A stretch of 64,000 bases of DNA from Prorocentrum cordatum (Eukaryota), in NCBI GenBank assembly GCA_963575745.1, contig CAUYUJ010000044.1, forward strand, positions 1-64,000, given 5' to 3'. Of this stretch, positions 22,860 to 61,137 are shown piece after piece. Position 1 is the stretch's first letter; the number at the start of each line of letters is the position of its first letter. Under the pieces are notes generated by a model, which was given only the letters and a program-made list of their open reading frames with translations, searched no databases and was not told the DNA's origin. Both the position numbers and the translations under genes were made by a program.

Positions 22860-23120
22860 CATAGAGGTCGGCCCACTCGGCAGAGGCGACATCTGCATCG
22901 GGAGGGGCAGCGACGAGATCCTGACGAGCAACCGGGGCAACCCCTTTCCCGTCAAGCGCTACGGCACGAAGGCCGTCGTGACGAATTTCGCGAACTGGCT
23001 CCTGACGGGGTCAGACCTGCTCGAGGCGCTCTCGGAGCTCGACAGCACCGCCCTCGGCAGCCACTGCGACCTGCATTCCGACTGCCTCGCGGTCGCCATC
23101 ATCGCGGCATGGCGGGAGGA
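22860..23120 (+). pseudogene. DUF4326-like domain, decayed, upstream of RT
   Basis: DICIGRG...SNRGNPF...FANWL...LLEALSELDSTALGSHCDLHSDCLAVAI follows the DUF4326 pattern YIGR..(W)GNPF...WL...L.EL....LGC.C....CH...L. Confidence 0.65.
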
Positions 23121-23519
23121 AAAGAAGCGCGCGACCGCGGGGTCCCTGCGCCGTTCGGAGGCGCAGGGCCGCCGTGCTGCCGCGAGTGCATCGCGGGCCC
23201 GGGAGGCTTCCGCGATGCCACGGGCATCCCATCGCCTAGCCGCTGGGACCCAGACCTGCGGAAGTTCCTGGACTGGACCGAGCTGGGGCCCAAGCCCCCC
23301 GAGGGGTCGCAGAAGCCAGGGGCGGCCGGGGCGCCGCAGAACACGCCCCGTTCGGGCTGGCTGCTCGGAGGTGCCCGGCTGGCGCCGATCCGACTGGGCC
23401 GTCCTACCTCGCGGGGGGGGGGTCCGAAGGCTTGCTGGCAGAGGGGCGGGCAGGCCGCGGCGACGAGTTGGGCTGCGTCGTCGGCGGCGCTTCCGCGCGA
23501 AGAAGGGGGCCCGACGCAG

Positions 23520-25040
23520 AGTTGACGAAGGGGCTGAGGTGGGGGTCGCGGCGGGATTCCTGCGCGAGATGCCCCCGAAGGAAAAAGCTCTTCGAGCTCG
23601 CCAAGTGGCGCCTCGACCATGAGGCGTCCAATTGGGCCGCCCCAGAAGCAGCCAACTACAGCAGCGGTGAAGACCGCGGCGATTGGCTCCGAGAGCACGT
23701 TGCGGACGAGGTGCATTCGGGCAGGGTGATCAAGATGTCCGCGGGGCAACTGCGCCATAGCGGCACTGGCGGCCCTGGAGAGCGCGAGCGGCAAGAACAT
23801 ATTCTCGCGAGATGACGCGCGCGAGGTCTGCCGTGGACCATCGGATTCGACGCAGGATGCGACGGGGGATGCCGAGGCCCGCGGAGAAGAACTACTTCCT
23901 GAACTCTTCCGGGACGAACACCAAGCCATCTTCTCGCTCGCCACCGACGTCGGGGGTGCGCGTCGGCGCGTCGAGATCCGCCAGGACGAGTGGAGCATGC
24001 CGACCTGCGAGTCCGAAGGTGAGATTCGCTGCAACACCGTCGGCACCTTCGGCGTATCCAGCGTCTCAGAATGGATTGCCAGGCTGTTCGGGGCCCTACC
24101 GTGCGCAATCTCCTGCCGCTGCCAATGGCCAGGGGGCCATCGAAACGGGGCGACGCGGGAGATTGGCAGCGCTCGTCCTACTCGGCGTCGGCTTCTCGGC
24201 GCAGAGGGCCAGGGCGCGGGGCGGCCTCGAGAAGGACTGGGCCGGCTTCGAATGTGATTGTACCACTTGCGTCGTGGGCCTCTCGCTGGCGAGGGCGGCT
24301 GGGGTTGCAGCCTGCTGTCGGGAAACGGTCGAACGCGGCGCCGCCCGCGAGGGCGATTTGGAGTCGGCGTAGGGCTCTTGGGTTTCTTGGCTATGGTCCA
24401 TGGTCCTTGTCTGGGAGAGGCCGCGTGCGTCTGGCGCGCCGGCGTCGTGAGGACAGAAGCGACGAAGCCCCCCCTAGCGTGGGTGGTCAGGCTTGCGCCG
24501 AATGGGATCGGCAAGCGATTGACGAGCGGGCAAAGTCTAGAAGCGCTCATTACATTCAAAACTGAGATCGCGGGGCACATCCGCTTGGGCGCGAAGGCGG
24601 AGGGAGGGCGCCGCTGGGTGGGTGGCTGGGAAGCGCCCCGAACGGCAGCGCGCGAGGAGCTCCTTGGCACGCGCTGGAGTTAGAGAAGGAATGGTTCCCT
24701 CGGGCGTTGGCCAAGGCAGACGGTCCAAACGGGGTCATCGCAGCGCTGGAGCTCCTCGGCACCGTCCTCTCCGCGAAGCTGTTCTCGACGCCCAGGCAGC
24801 TTCGCCAGCGGGCGAACCTCGAGATGATGGGGTCGACGGACAACCTGGGGAGCGCCTGCGCAGTGTCCGGGGCCGCGTCGACCAAGCGGCCGTGGACGGT
24901 CCTCCACGTCGAGCTTTCGGCGGGGTTGAGGTCGCGCGAGATGGCGCCGTGCATGGGCCGGCCACCGCGCGATGGGGAACCAGTAGGCAGACGACCTCAA
25001 CAACGTGAAGACAACCGACTTCGATCCGTACCTCAGGATC
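23520..25040 (+). pseudogene. Frameshifted reverse transcriptase-RNase H of a YR/DIRS-type retrotransposon (element 2)
   Basis: Ordered motifs across frames: ANYSS...EVHSG; FSLATDVGGA; NTVGTFGVSS..W..RL; GGLEKDWAGF; (D)AKAEG...GGWE; IAALELLGT; TDNLGS. Confidence 0.75.
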
Positions 25041-25599
25041 CACGTGGCGGCCGCGGACCTGATGCGGCGCGTGCTCGACGAGATGGTCCAGGCTTCCCGA
25101 GAACTCTGCGATTCGATCGTCGAGGAGAGGGCGGTCGCCTCGGAGGGGGCGCCCGCAGCTGGGCACGGCCGCGGGGGCTGCGGACGACGCGTGCGAATTG
25201 GGCCGCGGTGGCAGCCCCGCCCAGCGCTTCTCGGACGACGTCGCGCGGGTGGAGGTGGGCGTGGCTGCGTCGGCCGGCGGGGTCTCGTCCGACCCTTCGG
25301 GGTTTGGGCCTAATGGCGGGGGCCTATGGCGTGCCTGCGGGGCTGTCTTAAACTGCCGCCCTCCAGCGGGCGCCGCCGCGGAAGCGCTCCTCTGTGCGCC
25401 CTTGGACCCCCCCCCTTCCGCCGCGGCGGCGGGGGCGTCCAGTGCGGGAGGGGCGCGCCCGACAGAGGGCCCTTTGGAGGGCGGGCAGGGCTTCGAAGCC
25501 GCGCCCTAGCTGCCTCGCGCGCGGGCGCGGCGCGGCATGGACGGAGGTGGCGGTGCCAAAATGGAAGGGGCGAGTTGCGGCGTCCGCCAGGATCCCACC

Positions 25600-26130
25600 G
25601 CGTCGTTGGCGATCCGACCTCTCGCAGAGGGGTCATCCAGTTCCTGGGAGTGGTTGGGGGCCTGCGCCCAGGGCCCCCGGTTCTGCCGCCCGTGAGAGAA
25701 GCGACAACGTCATTCGGTTTGCTCTTTTCCCGCCGTCGCCTTTGTATTGGGGCTATTCAAGGATGCGCCCCCGTGTGCTAACGCTGCCCGCTGGTTCCCT
25801 GACCGACGTTTGTGGCTATTTTGGCTCAGGCGCTCGGCCACTCTTATGTGCCACAGTCTCAAGCACTCCGGGGCATCAAGTTCCTGGGAGTGGCTAGAAT
25901 GGGCCAACGTCAAAGTCGTCATTGTCGATGAATTCCGGGTCGGGAAGTTGTGGCGTAAGCGCACCGGTCCAATGCTATACCGTATAGATTTGTTTCGAGC
26001 GTGTTGCCAGTGTTTCGTGTGCAGGATTTGTTCGGCCACGGGGAAGCCCCGCGAAATCTTCGAAGGTCGCACCAAAGATGTGGTGCGCGCTGTATTCGCT
26101 GAGCCCGATTCCCCGATTTTTTCTGATTAG
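25600..26130 (+). pseudogene. Decayed C5-DNA-methyltransferase-like C-terminal region (element 2)
   Basis: SSSW...DEFRVGKLWRKRT...CSATGKPREIFEG aligns by eye with FCQDGAAWKKKPT...CSRTGQLHQIPRG of element 1. Confidence 0.5.
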
Positions 26131-59430: not shown

Positions 59431-59639
59431 TGAGGATCGGCGCGCGGCCGCGCTGGGGTGCTGTCGCCAGTCTGGCCGCCGCGCGGGGGGCTGGACAGGC
59501 AGGCGCTGGTGCCGGCGCCTCTCGTGACGATGGCCCCGCGCCAGGCGGCGGCGGGGGGCTCGCGCCGGGCGGCGGCCTCACAGCGAGGCTGGCGCCAGGC
59601 GAGATGCAGCCACCTGTCGAGGCCGGCGGAGGCGGGCGC

Positions 59640-60360
59640 CATGCGTGCGGGGGAGACCGCGGCGCAAGCGCCCAAGGCAGCCTCCCCTCGCTTCTCGGCG
59701 GGCCATGTCCTGAGGGCCCTCTCGATCTCGGCGGTCCCGAGGGCCAAGTGCACGCGCCTCTGGGCCGATGTCGTGGCCTGGATGACGTCCGTGACCGTGG
59801 CCCTCCGCGCCGAGACCGCGGACGACCTGCCGGAGCACTGGGTGGGCCAGCAGCGCGCCGAAGAGGGGGGCCCCGAGCGCATGGCCTACGGGCTGGTTGC
59901 GCTGAAGTTCATGATGCCGCAGTTCGGGCGCGGGGGCCAGGGGTTGCCGAAGACGCAGGTCTACAACGTGGTGATCTCAGTCGACCTGCCGTTCTACAGC
60001 TCCCTGCCCGGCGCTCTGAGCTGGCTCAAGGCGGGGGCCCGCCCGAGCGAGCCGAGCGCCCCGTTCACCCTCGTGCGCGTCAGCCCCTTGTTCAAGGAGG
60101 CGGCGGAGGGCGTGAAGCTGGCGTCGCTCGCCCCGCGGCTGTGCCAGCTGCGGCGCTCGGGCCCGTCGGTGGAGTTGGCCCTGCGGCTGCGGGCCCTGGC
60201 CAGCGTCAAGCTCCGCGGCCGTCGGCGGGCCGACGCGTCGGTTGCGCGCCTCCCCATGCCAGGCCGCGTCGGCGCGCAGCCGCAGAGGCTGGCGCCCAAG
60301 GTGCGGCGCGCGGCCCCGCTGGCCCCGGCGCGGCTGGCCTCTCTCCTCGGCTGGCGCTGA
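59640..60360 (+). pseudogene. Tyrosine recombinase of element 1, decayed
   Basis: LCQLRRSGPS (Y.LRH.G.S box) and KLRGRRRADASVARL (RGRW...SV.RY box); the central Arg box appears deleted. Confidence 0.7.
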
Positions 60361-60389
60361 GGAGGCTGCTGGGCCCCCGCCGCCGCCGT

Positions 60390-61137
60390 TTCCAGGCGCC
60401 CCCGATCTTCGCGGGGGTTTTCTCCGGCGAGGGCGCGCTGGCGGCAGCTCTGCGGAGCGAGGGCGCCCTGGTCATCGAGTGGGGCATCGCCTGGGGAGCG
60501 ACTGGGGCCTCGCCAACCTGAAGTGTCCCGGGTGTTGCGGGGCTGGCTGGGCGCCGGCCTGATCTGCGGCCTGCGTTTCGGTGCGCCCTGCGAGACGTGG
60601 TCCAGAGTCCGGGGCGCCGGGCCGCCGCGCGTGCCAGGCGAGCCCCCGTCCTGGCCAAGCCGCCTCCGCTCCGACTCAGAGCTCTGGGGGCTCGCAGCCG
60701 TGGCGCACCCAGCGGACCGAGCTCAGATTATGACCGCCAATAAGTTAGTGAGGTGCTGTGAAAGTGTGTGGGTCAGTTGCGATAGGCTGTGGCTCATTCC
60801 GTCTCTGCAGTGCTTCCGAAAACAACCGCATTTTTCCTGGGCGGTCACGCATTTTTGCCAAGACGGGGCCGCGTGGAAAAAAAAACCGACAAGTCTCCTT
60901 GGCTATCGTGTGGATGTCTCAGCCTTCGCTCGTTTGCGCGCTGGCTCTCGTTCGCGTTGTAGTAGGACTGGTCAGCTCCATCAGATTCCAAGAGGAAAAG
61001 CTCCAGGAAGGCCTCTGTGGACTTTAGTTGCGCATGCCTACCCCAGGGCACTTGCGAGACGATGGGCTCGCGCGCTCATCTGCGCCAGGCTCCACTCCGA
61101 GGCTCTGTCAATCGCGCCGATCTGGCTAGGCCGCTAA
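60390..61137 (+). pseudogene. C5-cytosine DNA methyltransferase-like ORF, frameshifted near 60515
   Basis: Motif I-like FAGVFSGEGAL, motif IV-like GAPCETWS (catalytic PC), FCQDG..WKKKPT, terminal AYPRAL; ENP/ENV motif missing. Confidence 0.7.

What the first reader, a model, noticed from the sequence alone, without database searches (positions are those of the whole stretch)
22880..60500. Dead retroelements decay by A>G / T>C, the reverse of CpG deamination or RIP
Nearly every broken motif is one A>G or T>C transition away from the expected residue. Element 1: DAFY>DASC (TCC TGC, ~58090), YQLRH>CQLRR (TGC, CGC, ~60145), RGRW>RGRR (CGG), E.FSG>GVFSG (GGG), D-I>G-I (GGC). Element 2: YIGR>CIGR, WGNPF>RGNPF, DAKAE>GAKAE. 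Even the relic SL shows TA>CG. The expected residues come from my recollection of the family motifs. Dinoflagellates replace part of their thymine with 5-hydroxymethyluracil. A T-modification-driven AT>GC hypermutation (or strong GC-biased conversion) could be a TE-inactivating process that also explains the high GC content.
Basis: inference. Interest (0 to 1): 0.8.

Follow-up and report, generated by a model that had tools for sequence, protein, structure and literature searches.

The report
Ordinary GC-leaning decay of retroelements
Two broken mobile-element relics in a GC-rich dinoflagellate genome turn A/T into G/C about twice as readily per site as the reverse, but the nearby simple repeats do the same, so this looks like the genome's normal drift and not a special transposon-killing mutation process.

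Summary
The claim that nearly every break is A>G or T>C fails an unbiased census. Of 19 single-step replacements private to the window copy, 9 are A>G/T>C and 6 are G>A/C>T. Among 156 private replacements in seven related copies, AT>GC and GC>AT are tied at 55 each.

Per available site, AT>GC is about 2 times more likely (p=4e-4). That gives an equilibrium GC of about 0.67, which is what a 60-73% GC sequence at compositional equilibrium needs. Non-TE microsatellites show the same bias (2.5 times).

The element's high GC sits at third codon positions (84-95%). Its non-coding ends are only 57% GC.

I found no TpA, CpG or strand signature. Several of the listed breaks are shared with a sister copy, so they were inherited.

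Element 1 is a dead DIRS-like retrotransposon with an A-coding-B-A-B repeat layout. Element 2 is only a DUF4326-like relic.

Verdict: ordinary neutral decay under a genome-wide GC-leaning regime, not TE-targeted hypermutation. Interest is low.

The parts
55469..55980 (.). (GAT)n microsatellite abutting the 5' end of element 1
   Evidence: Tandem Repeats Finder. The array runs up to the first base of repeat A.
55978..56073 (+). Terminal direct repeat A of element 1
   Evidence: 98-nt alignment, 90% identical to 61314-61411. GC 0.43.
56153..57148 (+). Gag-like N-terminal region of element 1, with frame changes
   Evidence: tblastn of P0004 and P0006 in frames 1 and 2. GC by codon position 0.675/0.521/0.882 for 56642-57148.
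57405..59117 (+). Reverse transcriptase / RNase H-like region of element 1. Holds DIADASC at 58083, YVDN at 58362 and TDAS at 58827.
   Evidence: 83% identical to P0004 over 571 aa. The family profile hits HIV-1 RT at E=3e-4. GC by codon position 0.737/0.529/0.844.
59294..60300 (+). RNase H C-terminus and a tyrosine-recombinase-like region. It is frameshifted and has an internal deletion of about 83 residues. Holds CQLRR at 60142 and RGRR at 60214.
   Evidence: tblastn HSPs in three frames. The deletion and the motif changes are shared with P0004. GC by codon position 0.715/0.54/0.955 for 59701-60300.
60390..60741 (+). Start of a methyltransferase-like tail (GVFSG at 60414)
   Evidence: Matches the C-terminal parts of P0008 and P0009. 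The methyltransferase reading rests on recalled motifs only.
61179..61316 (+). Direct repeat B
   Evidence: 138 nt, 94% identical to 61451-61588.
61314..61411 (+). Direct repeat A' (second copy of A)
61451..61588 (+). Direct repeat B' (second copy of B), the 3' end of element 1
   Evidence: An (ATG)n array starts at 61586.
61586..62681 (.). (ATG)n-class microsatellite abutting the 3' end of element 1
22831..23148 (+). Element 2: DUF4326-like domain relic (CIGR at 22894, RGNPF at 22933)
   Evidence: Pfam DUF4326 E=2.3e-4, 22.2 bits, under the 25-bit cut-off. 17 representative proteins at E<=1e-3, best 1.2e-8. tblastn.
24566..25348 (+). Open frame downstream of GAKAE (24588). Possibly RNase H-like.
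   Evidence: No Pfam hit. The atlas gives only hypothetical-protein clusters, one of which carries RVT_3 on 11% of its members. This is a lead only.
25809..25830 (+). Spliced-leader-like stretch
   Evidence: 16-mer core with 2 mismatches. Sequence. Weak: 12 of 100 shuffles give two or more such matches.
51796..51817 (+).
   Evidence: 16-mer core with 2 mismatches. Sequence.

Best explanation
Element 1 (55978-61588) is a dead DIRS-like retrotransposon of a GC-rich dinoflagellate, probably Prorocentrum cordatum or a close relative. Element 2 is a relic of a DUF4326-like gene.

Both are decaying neutrally under the substitution regime that acts on the whole window. In that regime an A/T site changes to G/C about 2 to 2.5 times as readily as a G/C site changes to A/T. 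The implied equilibrium GC is about 0.6-0.7, close to the composition actually seen, so gains and losses of GC are about equal in number.

The regime is shown by the counts. Its cause is inferred: GC-biased gene conversion or repair, an unusual mutation bias, or both.

The element's extra GC (73%) was built up at synonymous sites while the family was alive, not after it died.

1. The real per-site bias.
2. Looking only at motif residues (Y, F, H, W, D, E) whose codons are rich in A/T.
3. Selective listing, together with counting breaks that were inherited from a defective ancestor shared with a sister copy.
For: 1. Unbiased census of the family. In 525 columns there are 156 single-step private replacements in 7 relatives. 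AT>GC is 55 of 708 opportunities (0.078) and GC>AT is 55 of 1405 (0.039). By type: A>G 0.109, T>C 0.124, G>A 0.050, C>T 0.041. The per-site bias has p=3.7e-4 and the counts are exactly symmetric. Implied equilibrium GC is 0.665.

2. Window copy: 12 AT>GC against 7 GC>AT among 19 single-step replacements. Branch shared with P0004: 4 against 4.

3. DNA level. In the 40 best-supported of 817 difference rows, every laid X1 contig reads another letter than the window. Polarised from those contigs to the window: A>G 11, T>C 7, G>A 7, C>T 2, G>T 5, C>A 1, and 7 others. That is 18 AT>GC against 15 GC>AT. Over all X1 places the window is the GC-richer side at 311 and the AT-richer side at 274 (p=0.14). 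For X2 the figures are 99 and 114.

4. Not TE-specific. In 19 microsatellite arrays, collapsed events give AT>GC 171/3454 against GC>AT 44/2228, a ratio of 2.5 (p=3e-9). 13 of 17 informative arrays go that way.

5. Where the GC sits. GC by codon position is 0.74/0.53/0.84 (RT-RNase H), 0.68/0.52/0.88 (gag-like) and 0.72/0.54/0.96 (recombinase-like). The non-coding ends are 0.573 GC, the coding part is 0.728 and the rest of the window is 0.601.

6. No special signature.
- T>C at TpA is 3/16 against 38/335 elsewhere (p=0.41).
- C>T at CpG is 14/257 against 15/378 elsewhere (p=0.44).
- A>G against T>C on the coding strand is 18/165 against 23/186 (p=0.74).

7. CQLRR, RGRR, the loss of the Y in ARY and an 83-residue deletion are all shared with P0004.

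8. Published figures for P. cordatum (passages read in PMC10666404) are 59.7% G+C for the genome and 65.9% for genes. These match the window.
Against: - The window copy itself leans to GC gain in raw counts: 12 to 7 at the protein level, and 18 to 9 for transitions in the 40 DNA rows. Neither differs significantly from 1:1 (p=0.36 and 0.12).
- ATG-class arrays show a stronger bias (3.1-fold) and an unexplained A>C excess. GGA-class arrays run the other way (0.66-fold).
- Long-unit satellites show only 1.2-fold (singletons, not significant) to 1.7-fold. The neutral regime is therefore heterogeneous and its equilibrium is only bracketed, at 0.55-0.72.
- TpA is more depleted in the element's coding part (o/e 0.33, or 0.45 after correcting for codon phase) than in the background (0.55).
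- The sample is small. The protein-level inference sees only replacement changes in predicted gene models, and only 40 of 817 read-difference rows were visible.
- Mutation bias and biased conversion cannot be told apart here.
Confidence: 0.72

Rival explanations
1. A TE-targeted AT>GC hypermutation acts as a genome defence. It might be thymine-modification (5hmU) driven or DNA adenine deamination, like the TpA-specific A>G/T>C hypermutation of integrated viruses reported in Bigelowiella natans. On this reading it inactivated these elements and raised their GC.
For: - A precedent exists. Integrated viral regions of B. natans mutate almost only A>G/T>C at TpA, and TpA-poor coding sequences there are enriched in reverse transcriptases (bioRxiv 10.64898/2026.01.13.699255; abstract and Results read).
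- 5hmU is enriched on dinoflagellate TEs, including Ngaro-type elements (PMC11572971 and PMC11071213; passages read).
- TpA o/e is 0.33 in the coding part of element 1 against 0.55 in the background.
- The window copy has 12 AT>GC against 7 GC>AT private replacements.
Against: - A>G plus T>C are only 41 of 156 private replacements in relatives and 9 of 19 in the window.
- Only 3 of 41 AT>GC transitions lie at TpA.
- CpA+TpG o/e is 1.09, against the >=1.52 used in B. natans.
- The ratio of GC>AT to AT>GC per-site rates is 0.50 in the TE family and 0.40 in microsatellites. In the B. natans hypermutable regions it is 0.006-0.14.
- The element's non-coding ends are only 57% GC.
- The bias is no stronger in the TE than in non-TE repeats.
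- In A. carterae, TEs with high 5hmU are less diverged, not more (PMC11572971).
Confidence: 0.07
2. A-to-I (ADAR-like) editing of the retroelement's RNA before reverse transcription fixed A>G changes into new DNA copies.
For: P. cordatum is reported to edit mRNA at tens of thousands of sites (PMC10666404; passages read). Retroelements copy through RNA, so edits could become heritable.
Against: Such editing should give A>G far above T>C on the coding strand, and in clusters. What is seen on the coding strand:
- A>G 18/165 against T>C 23/186 in relatives (p=0.74).
- 6 against 3 in the window.
- 11 against 7 in the DNA rows.
- The six window A>G sites are spread over 58092-59136.

Microsatellites, which do not pass through RNA, show the same AT>GC bias.
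Confidence: 0.03
3. The differences among copies mostly reflect selection in still-functional lineages (amino-acid or codon preferences of a GC-rich host) and not neutral decay, so the spectrum says little about mutation or conversion.
For: - The strong codon-position structure (GC3 0.84-0.96 against GC2 about 0.53) shows long evolution under coding constraint.
- The relatives are predicted proteins whose status, alive or dead, is unknown.
- YVDN in place of the usual YxDD is conserved across the family. Some 'odd' residues are therefore native and not the result of decay.
Against: - The window copy has at least 4 frame changes relative to P0004 and an internal deletion.
- Of the 14 visible window-specific DNA changes that lie in 57405-59117, 3, 6 and 5 fall on codon positions 1, 2 and 3. 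That is, there is no sparing of replacement sites (frame).
- The same per-site bias is seen in non-coding microsatellites.
Confidence: 0.1

Closest known systems
DIRS-type tyrosine-recombinase retrotransposons of dinoflagellates (SymbioDIRS, with or without Dnmt3; PMC5890265, passages read)
   Same: - The A-coding-B-A-B arrangement of split direct repeats.
- A divergent reverse transcriptase that Pfam does not recognise. That paper says the same of the Symbiodinium DIRS elements.
- RT-RNase H followed by a recombinase-like region and a tail that looks methyltransferase-like.
   Different: - The host genus differs.
- The recombinase and methyltransferase identities could not be confirmed here: there was no Pfam or PDB profile hit and the models were poor.
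- The RT motif reads YVDN across the family.
- This copy is broken and sits inside an (ATG)n array.
TpA-targeted A>G/T>C hypermutation of integrated viral DNA in Bigelowiella natans (bioRxiv 10.64898/2026.01.13.699255; abstract and Results read)
   Same: The direction of the bias (A/T to G/C transitions) and the idea of foreign or mobile DNA in a marine protist being edited. TpA is somewhat low in element 1 (o/e 0.33-0.45).
   Different: Here the spectrum is mixed, with 55 AT>GC against 55 GC>AT. It is not confined to TpA (3 of 41). It comes without CpA+TpG enrichment (1.09). It is no stronger in the TE than in neighbouring non-TE repeats.
GC-biased gene conversion, or a GC-leaning substitution equilibrium, in GC-rich genomes (general knowledge; mentioned for dinoflagellates only as a possibility in PMC11114475)
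   Same: Per-site AT>GC exceeds GC>AT in several classes of presumably neutral DNA. The implied equilibrium GC (0.55-0.72) brackets the observed 0.60.
   Different: The defining tests could not be run: allele-frequency skew of AT>GC variants, a link to recombination, and comparison with de novo mutations. Conversion is therefore not separated from mutation bias.
CpG deamination decay of methylated TEs, and fungal RIP
   Same: Both are ways in which dead repeats drift in composition.
   Different: The direction is opposite and the hallmark is absent. C>T at CpG is 14/257 against 15/378 elsewhere (p=0.44). CpG o/e is 1.00 in the element.
5hmU marking of dinoflagellate TEs (PMC11572971, PMC11071213; passages read)
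   Same: Those papers report 5hmU enriched over repeats, including Ngaro/YR-type retroelements.
   Different: In the passages I read, those papers describe silencing and not mutagenesis, and they report high-5hmU TEs as less diverged. Nothing in this window ties T>C changes to any sequence context.

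Membership tests
DIRS-like retrotransposon | Reverse transcriptase domain | tested here: met
   The profile of alignment A1 hits HIV-1, HIV-2 and FIV-type RT chains and a group II maturase. There are 14 chains at E<=1, the best at 3e-4. Pfam RVT_1 is only sub-threshold (E 0.027-0.39). The signal is weak but consistent.
DIRS-like retrotransposon | Split direct repeats in the order A-coding-B-A-B, not plain LTRs | tested here: met
   A 55978-56073 and A' 61314-61411 are 90% identical. B 61179-61316 and B' 61451-61588 are 94% identical.
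DIRS-like retrotransposon | Tyrosine recombinase in place of a DDE integrase | tested here: inconclusive
   - No Phage_integrase hit at E<=1 for P0008 or P0009.
- The profile of A4 gives 0 PDB hits at E<=10.
- The AlphaFold models have pLDDT 40.9 and 35.8.
- The reading rests on a recalled motif pattern (..LRPSE.., YQLRH, RGRW...RY) seen in P0008 and P0009.
DIRS-like retrotransposon | RNase H domain after the RT | tested here: inconclusive
   There is a DAS..G motif and a sub-threshold hit to DNA_pol_viral_C (E 0.016). No significant hit.
B. natans-type targeted A>G/T>C hypermutation | Spectrum almost exclusively A>G/T>C | tested here: not met
   41 of 156 in relatives and 9 of 19 in the window. 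GC>AT equals AT>GC at 55 to 55.
B. natans-type targeted A>G/T>C hypermutation | Changes confined to TpA | tested here: not met
   3 of 41 AT>GC transitions lie at TpA. The rate is 3/16 against 38/335 elsewhere, p=0.41.
B. natans-type targeted A>G/T>C hypermutation | TpA depletion together with CpA+TpG enrichment | tested here: not met
   TpA o/e is 0.33 (0.45 after codon-phase correction), but CpA+TpG o/e is only 1.09. The background values are 0.55 and 1.01.
B. natans-type targeted A>G/T>C hypermutation | Bias restricted to foreign or mobile DNA | tested here: not met
   The per-site AT>GC to GC>AT ratio is 2.0 in the TE family, 2.5 in microsatellites and 1.2-1.7 in satellites.
CpG-deamination / RIP-type decay | C>T excess, especially at CpG, with CpG depletion | tested here: not met
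   C>T at CpG is 14/257 against 15/378 elsewhere (p=0.44). CpG o/e is 1.00 in the element.
RNA-editing (A-to-I) imprint on retrocopies | A>G far above T>C on the sense strand, in clusters | tested here: not met
   18/165 against 23/186 (p=0.74). The window's A>G sites are dispersed.
GC-biased gene conversion | AT>GC favoured per site in neutral DNA of all classes, with an equilibrium GC near the observed GC | tested here: met
   TE family 2.0-fold, with equilibrium GC 0.665. Microsatellites 2.5-fold. Satellites 1.2-1.7-fold. The result is heterogeneous: 4 of 17 informative arrays run the other way.
GC-biased gene conversion | AT>GC alleles segregate at higher frequency, the bias tracks recombination, and de novo mutation is not itself GC-biased | not testable with these tools
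   This needs population or mutation-accumulation data. No whole genome is held for this window.
DUF4326 (element 2) | Match to the Pfam model above its cut-off | tested here: not met
   22.2 bits against a 25-bit cut-off, E=2.3e-4. However, 17 representative proteins match at E<=1e-3 and they share the YIGRG / WGNPF / CHC..CH.D pattern. It is a decayed relative, not a clean member.
Retroelement (element 2) | A reverse transcriptase nearby | tested here: not met
   The family profile finds only element 1 in the window. Pfam finds nothing in 77 long frames across 22.6-63.9 kb.

The most novel reading that the evidence does not exclude
The GC-leaning regime is itself the product of an unusual DNA-level process in this lineage. 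It could be thymine hydroxymethylation followed by biased repair. It could also be a DNA adenine or TpA editing system of the kind just reported in Bigelowiella. On this reading the process acted on this retroelement family earlier, leaving TpA at a third of expectation, and it now contributes to this genome having the highest GC of any sequenced dinoflagellate.
Probability: 0.08. Interest if true: 0.8.

Novelty: new member of a known kind. Interest (0 to 1): 0.22.

Why it matters
The claim would have pointed to a new kind of genome defence in dinoflagellates. One protist (Bigelowiella) has just been reported to have something similar, so the test was worth making.

The result is mostly negative. 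The relics show the same GC-leaning, roughly balanced turnover as neighbouring non-TE repeats.

Two modest points remain:
- In the most GC-rich dinoflagellate genome, presumably neutral DNA changes A/T to G/C about twice as readily per site as the reverse, with no CpG hypermutability. That is the opposite of the usual eukaryotic pattern. It makes the question 'mutation bias or biased conversion?' concrete for this lineage.
- The window holds a DIRS-like element with the full A-coding-B-A-B layout in Prorocentrum, from a family whose proteins are so far only 'unnamed products'.

Tried and rejected
- Whole genome: none is held for this window, so no genome-wide copy alignment was possible.
- Copies inside the window: self-BLAST finds no second DNA copy of either element. 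The family profile finds only element 1.
- Metagenome scan for DNA of relatives: 51 pattern matches, none confirmed. I did not use the second scan. Six window peptides, several of them shared with close relatives, had already found nothing.
- Sequencing runs: only small shares of the words are held (X1 0.16, X2 0.05, X3 and X4 about 0). Contigs were laid at 80% likeness or more, but only 40 of 817 difference rows were shown. The summary counts also include the microsatellite flanks.
- Homologue searches:
  - The 'shorter' search for element 1 added 3 fragments, of which P0016 was used.
  - The word-based search for element 2 found nothing.
  - No relatives were found for the GAKAE stretch, so that motif is unverified.
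- Structure: the AlphaFold2 models of P0008 (pLDDT 40.9) and of the recombinase-like region (35.8) are too poor for a fold search, so I ran none. The profile of the recombinase-like region against PDB gave 0 hits.
- Pfam on 77 long frames across 22.6-63.9 kb gave only low-complexity hits.
- Earlier findings of this scan: nothing for this genome, this sequence or these words.
- Raw microsatellite counts overstate the bias (4.6-fold) because variant units are amplified, for example in CAT/CAG alternation. I replaced them with collapsed counts.
- I considered and rejected an ADAR-type imprint, CpG or RIP-type decay, and the TpA-specific signature. The reasons are in the membership tests.

Full report
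**What was checked first.**
The window is 60% GC and full of microsatellites.

| String | Position | Codons |
|---|---|---|
| DASC | 58083 | TCC TGC |
| CQLRR | 60142 | TGC .. CGC |
| RGRR | 60214 | CGG |
| GVFSG | 60414 | GGG |
| CIGR | 22894 | TGC |
| RGNPF | 22933 | CGG |
| GAKAE | 24588 | GGC |

**What the two 'elements' are.**
- The long + strand frames at 56952-60521 have no Pfam match. They are 82-83% identical to an unnamed Prorocentrum cordatum protein (P0004) and 55-65% identical to several others.
- A profile of the family reaches retroviral reverse transcriptases in the PDB at E=3e-4. Pfam RVT_1 stays sub-threshold.
- The element is bounded by split direct repeats in the order A (55978-56073), coding, B (61179-61316), A' (61314-61411), B' (61451-61588). 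PMC5890265 (figure legend and text passages read) describes this arrangement as typical of DIRS retrotransposons, including the Symbiodinium ones. That paper also notes that their reverse transcriptase escapes Pfam.
- The recombinase and methyltransferase readings rest on motif patterns that I recall. They were not confirmed by Pfam, a PDB profile search or two AlphaFold models, which came out at pLDDT 40.9 and 35.8.
- The copy is dead. It needs at least four frame changes to follow P0004. It lacks about 83 residues of the recombinase-like region.
- Element 2 is only a decayed DUF4326-like domain: Pfam E=2.3e-4, below the cut-off, and 17 representative relatives. No reverse transcriptase lies near it. 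Calling it a retroelement is unproven.

**Are the expected residues right?**
Mostly.
- The family consensus reads DIADAFYN.
- P0008 reads YQLRH, RGRW and EVFSG.
- The DUF4326-like relatives read YIGRG and WGNPF.
- However, P0004 shares CQLRR, RGRR, the loss of the tyrosine in ..ARY.. and the 83-residue deletion with the window copy, and P0009 also has CQLRH. Those breaks were inherited from an already defective ancestor. They are not independent events in this copy.
- In element 2, three other conserved residues are broken by A:T>T:A changes that were not listed: C>S AGC, H>L CTC, D>V GTC.
- DAKAE could not be checked.

**Unbiased polarised spectra for the family.**
I mapped six close relatives (P0004-P0009) onto the window codons and looked only at columns where at least three relatives are unanimous.
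- There are 347 such columns. The window agrees at 322 and differs at 25.
- Of the 25, 19 are single-nucleotide steps: A>G 6, T>C 3, A>C 1, T>G 2, G>A 5, C>T 1, C>A 1. Three are ambiguous and three need more than one step.
- A>G/T>C is therefore 9 of 19, not nearly all.

I then turned the test round: residues private to one of seven relatives (the six plus P0016), with the window and all the others agreeing, and the window codon taken as the ancestral proxy.
- 525 columns give 156 single-step changes. A further 18 ambiguous and 53 multi-step changes were set aside.
- AT>GC is 55 and GC>AT is 55.
- Per opportunity, AT>GC is 0.078 and GC>AT is 0.039. By type: A>G 0.109, T>C 0.124, G>A 0.050, C>T 0.041.
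- The per-site bias is significant (p=3.7e-4; transitions alone p=1.4e-4). The counts are exactly balanced.
- The implied equilibrium GC is 0.665.
- On the branch shared by the window and P0004, the tally is 4 to 4.
- Changes that create stops cannot appear in predicted proteins, and these are mostly GC>AT. The GC>AT count is therefore, if anything, too low.

**A DNA-level look.**
No run holds the stretch well. Contigs at 80% likeness or more from a related sample cover the element.
- In the 40 best-supported of 817 difference rows, every laid X1 contig disagrees with the window. Polarised from those contigs to the window, the changes are A>G 11, T>C 7, G>A 7, C>T 2, G>T 5, C>A 1, C>G 2, G>C 3, T>A 1 and A>T 1. 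That is 18 AT>GC against 15 GC>AT. In six of these rows an X2 contig carries the window's letter.
- Fourteen of the rows fall in the RT-RNase H frame, on codon positions 1, 2 and 3 in the ratio 3:6:5. That is neutral decay.
- Over all listed places, the window is the GC-richer partner at 311 and the AT-richer at 274 in X1 (p=0.14). In X2 the figures are 99 and 114 (p=0.34). These totals include the microsatellite flanks.
- A copy that had been pushed one way towards GC would stand out here. It does not.

**Is it TE-specific?**
I used the window's own non-TE repeats, where the pure unit gives the ancestral state.

| Class of DNA | AT>GC | GC>AT | Per-site ratio |
|---|---|---|---|
| TE family (private replacements) | 55/708 | 55/1405 | 2.0 |
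| 19 microsatellite arrays, amplified variants collapsed | 171/3454 | 44/2228 | 2.5 (p=3e-9) |
| Long-unit satellites, singletons | 13 | 25 | 1.2 |
| Long-unit satellites, all variants | 40 | 54 | 1.7 |

- Thirteen arrays lean towards AT>GC, four lean the other way and two are uninformative.
- ATG-class arrays are at 3.1-fold and GGA-class arrays at 0.66-fold.
- The TE figure of 2.0 sits inside the non-TE range.

**Where the element's GC comes from.**

| Region | GC at codon positions 1 / 2 / 3 |
|---|---|
| RT-RNase H | 0.74 / 0.53 / 0.84 |
| gag-like | 0.68 / 0.52 / 0.88 |
| recombinase-like | 0.72 / 0.54 / 0.96 |

- The element's non-coding ends are 0.57 GC (repeat A 0.43-0.46). Its coding part is 0.73 and the rest of the window is 0.60.
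- A process that hypermutates dead TE DNA would hit all positions and the non-coding ends alike.
- This pattern is instead the mark of long evolution as a coding sequence in a GC-rich host. The reported genome G+C is 59.7% and gene G+C is 65.9% (PMC10666404, passages read).
- Positions 1 and 2 average about 0.63, near the estimated equilibrium. That is why replacement changes are balanced.

**Signature tests.**
A preprint on Bigelowiella natans (10.64898/2026.01.13.699255; abstract and Results read) reports real A>G/T>C hypermutation of integrated viral DNA. It is confined to TpA and leaves TpA depletion together with CpA+TpG enrichment.

| Test | Result |
|---|---|
| AT>GC transitions at TpA | only 3 of 41; rate 3/16 against 38/335, p=0.41 |
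| TpA o/e, element 1 coding part | 0.33 (0.45 after codon-phase correction); background 0.55 |
| CpA+TpG o/e, element 1 coding part | 1.09; background 1.01 |
| C>T at CpG | 14/257 against 15/378, p=0.44 |
| CpG o/e in the element | 1.00 |
| A>G against T>C on the coding strand | 18/165 against 23/186, p=0.74 |

- None of the hallmarks of TpA-targeted editing, RIP or CpG decay, or RNA-editing imprints is present.
- Papers on dinoflagellate 5hmU report it enriched on TEs as a silencing mark, with high-5hmU TEs less diverged (PMC11572971 and PMC11071213, passages read). In the passages I read, neither mentions mutagenesis.

- Motif residues such as Y, F, H, W, D and E have A/T-rich codons.
- With the family's measured rates, a random replacement at the ten implied ancestral codons would be A>G/T>C 4.4 times in 10. 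With uniform rates the figure is 2.1.
- Ten of ten would have p=1.5e-4 for an unbiased sample.
- The unbiased census gives 47% (9 of 19), which is what those rates predict. The list is therefore a selected subset, inflated by inherited breaks.

**The spliced-leader relics.**
- The full leader, as I recall it, has no match at 3 mismatches or fewer.
- Its 16-base core has two matches with 2 mismatches each. Chance expectation is 0.56, and 12 of 100 shuffles reach two.
- Their differences from the recalled leader run in both directions.

**What stays open.**
- The sample is small and partly protein-inferred.
- The neutral classes disagree in strength.
- ATG arrays carry an unexplained A>C excess.
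- The cause of the GC-leaning regime, whether biased conversion or repair or a mutation bias, cannot be settled without polymorphism or mutation-accumulation data.
- My literature searches turned up no polarised substitution spectrum or mutation-accumulation study for a dinoflagellate. The terms were 'dinoflagellate' with 'GC-biased gene conversion' and with 'mutation accumulation' / 'mutation spectrum'. These were listings only for most hits, and subscription journals are not covered.

Noticed in passing
55469-55980 and 61586-62681: Element 1 is flanked on both sides, right up to its terminal repeats, by (ATG)n-class microsatellite. It looks as if it inserted into a pre-existing array, or as if such arrays grow at its ends. 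The window holds eight ATG-class arrays among those analysed.
   Followed up: partly
ATG-class arrays, e.g. 27096-28237, 31628-32110, 4588-5366: A>C (GAT>GCT) is the commonest departure from the pure unit. After collapsing there are 66 such events against 28 A>G. Part of this is amplified higher-order units (CAT/CAG alternation on the minus strand). The cause is unexplained.
   Followed up: partly
47915-48165, 48514-49243, 41932-42054: Purine-rich (GGA/AGG)n arrays show the opposite bias to ATG arrays. GC>AT is 22/649 and AT>GC is 7/312. The neutral spectrum is therefore context- or class-dependent.
   Followed up: no
56150-60750: CpG is not depleted in the dead element (o/e 1.00, against 0.85 in the rest of the window), and CpG sites show no excess of C>T. 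This would be surprising if dinoflagellate TEs are heavily CpG-methylated, as I recall being reported for Symbiodinium.
   Followed up: partly
58362 (YVDN) and alignment A1: The reverse-transcriptase catalytic motif reads YVDN, not the usual Y-x-D-D, in the close relatives that cover that stretch (one, P0008, reads CVDN) and in three of the distant ones. It is therefore native to the family and not a sign of decay.
   Followed up: partly
59701-60300 and P0004: The window copy and P0004 share an ~83-residue deletion in the recombinase-like region and the same motif breaks. A defective copy was therefore propagated, either by trans-mobilisation or by segmental duplication.
   Followed up: partly
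protein P0017: A 78-residue EukProt protein labelled Pyramimonas sp. is 83% identical to this dinoflagellate element. Possible cross-contamination of that data set, or a shared element.
   Followed up: no
2300-4585: A satellite with a 77-nt unit lies directly against a (TGATGA)n array at 4588-5366. The satellite has about 19 copies at 83% identity in its main block, and higher-order periods of 155, 340 and 460 nt.
   Followed up: partly
33765-34190 and 53691-54181: Two very pure (CTA)n arrays (97-99% matches) lie 20 kb apart and match each other at 95-99%. They are much younger or more homogenised than the ATG arrays.
   Followed up: no
47553-48099 and 48152-48707: A local tandem duplication of about 550 nt at 91% identity, next to (GGA)n arrays.
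   Followed up: no
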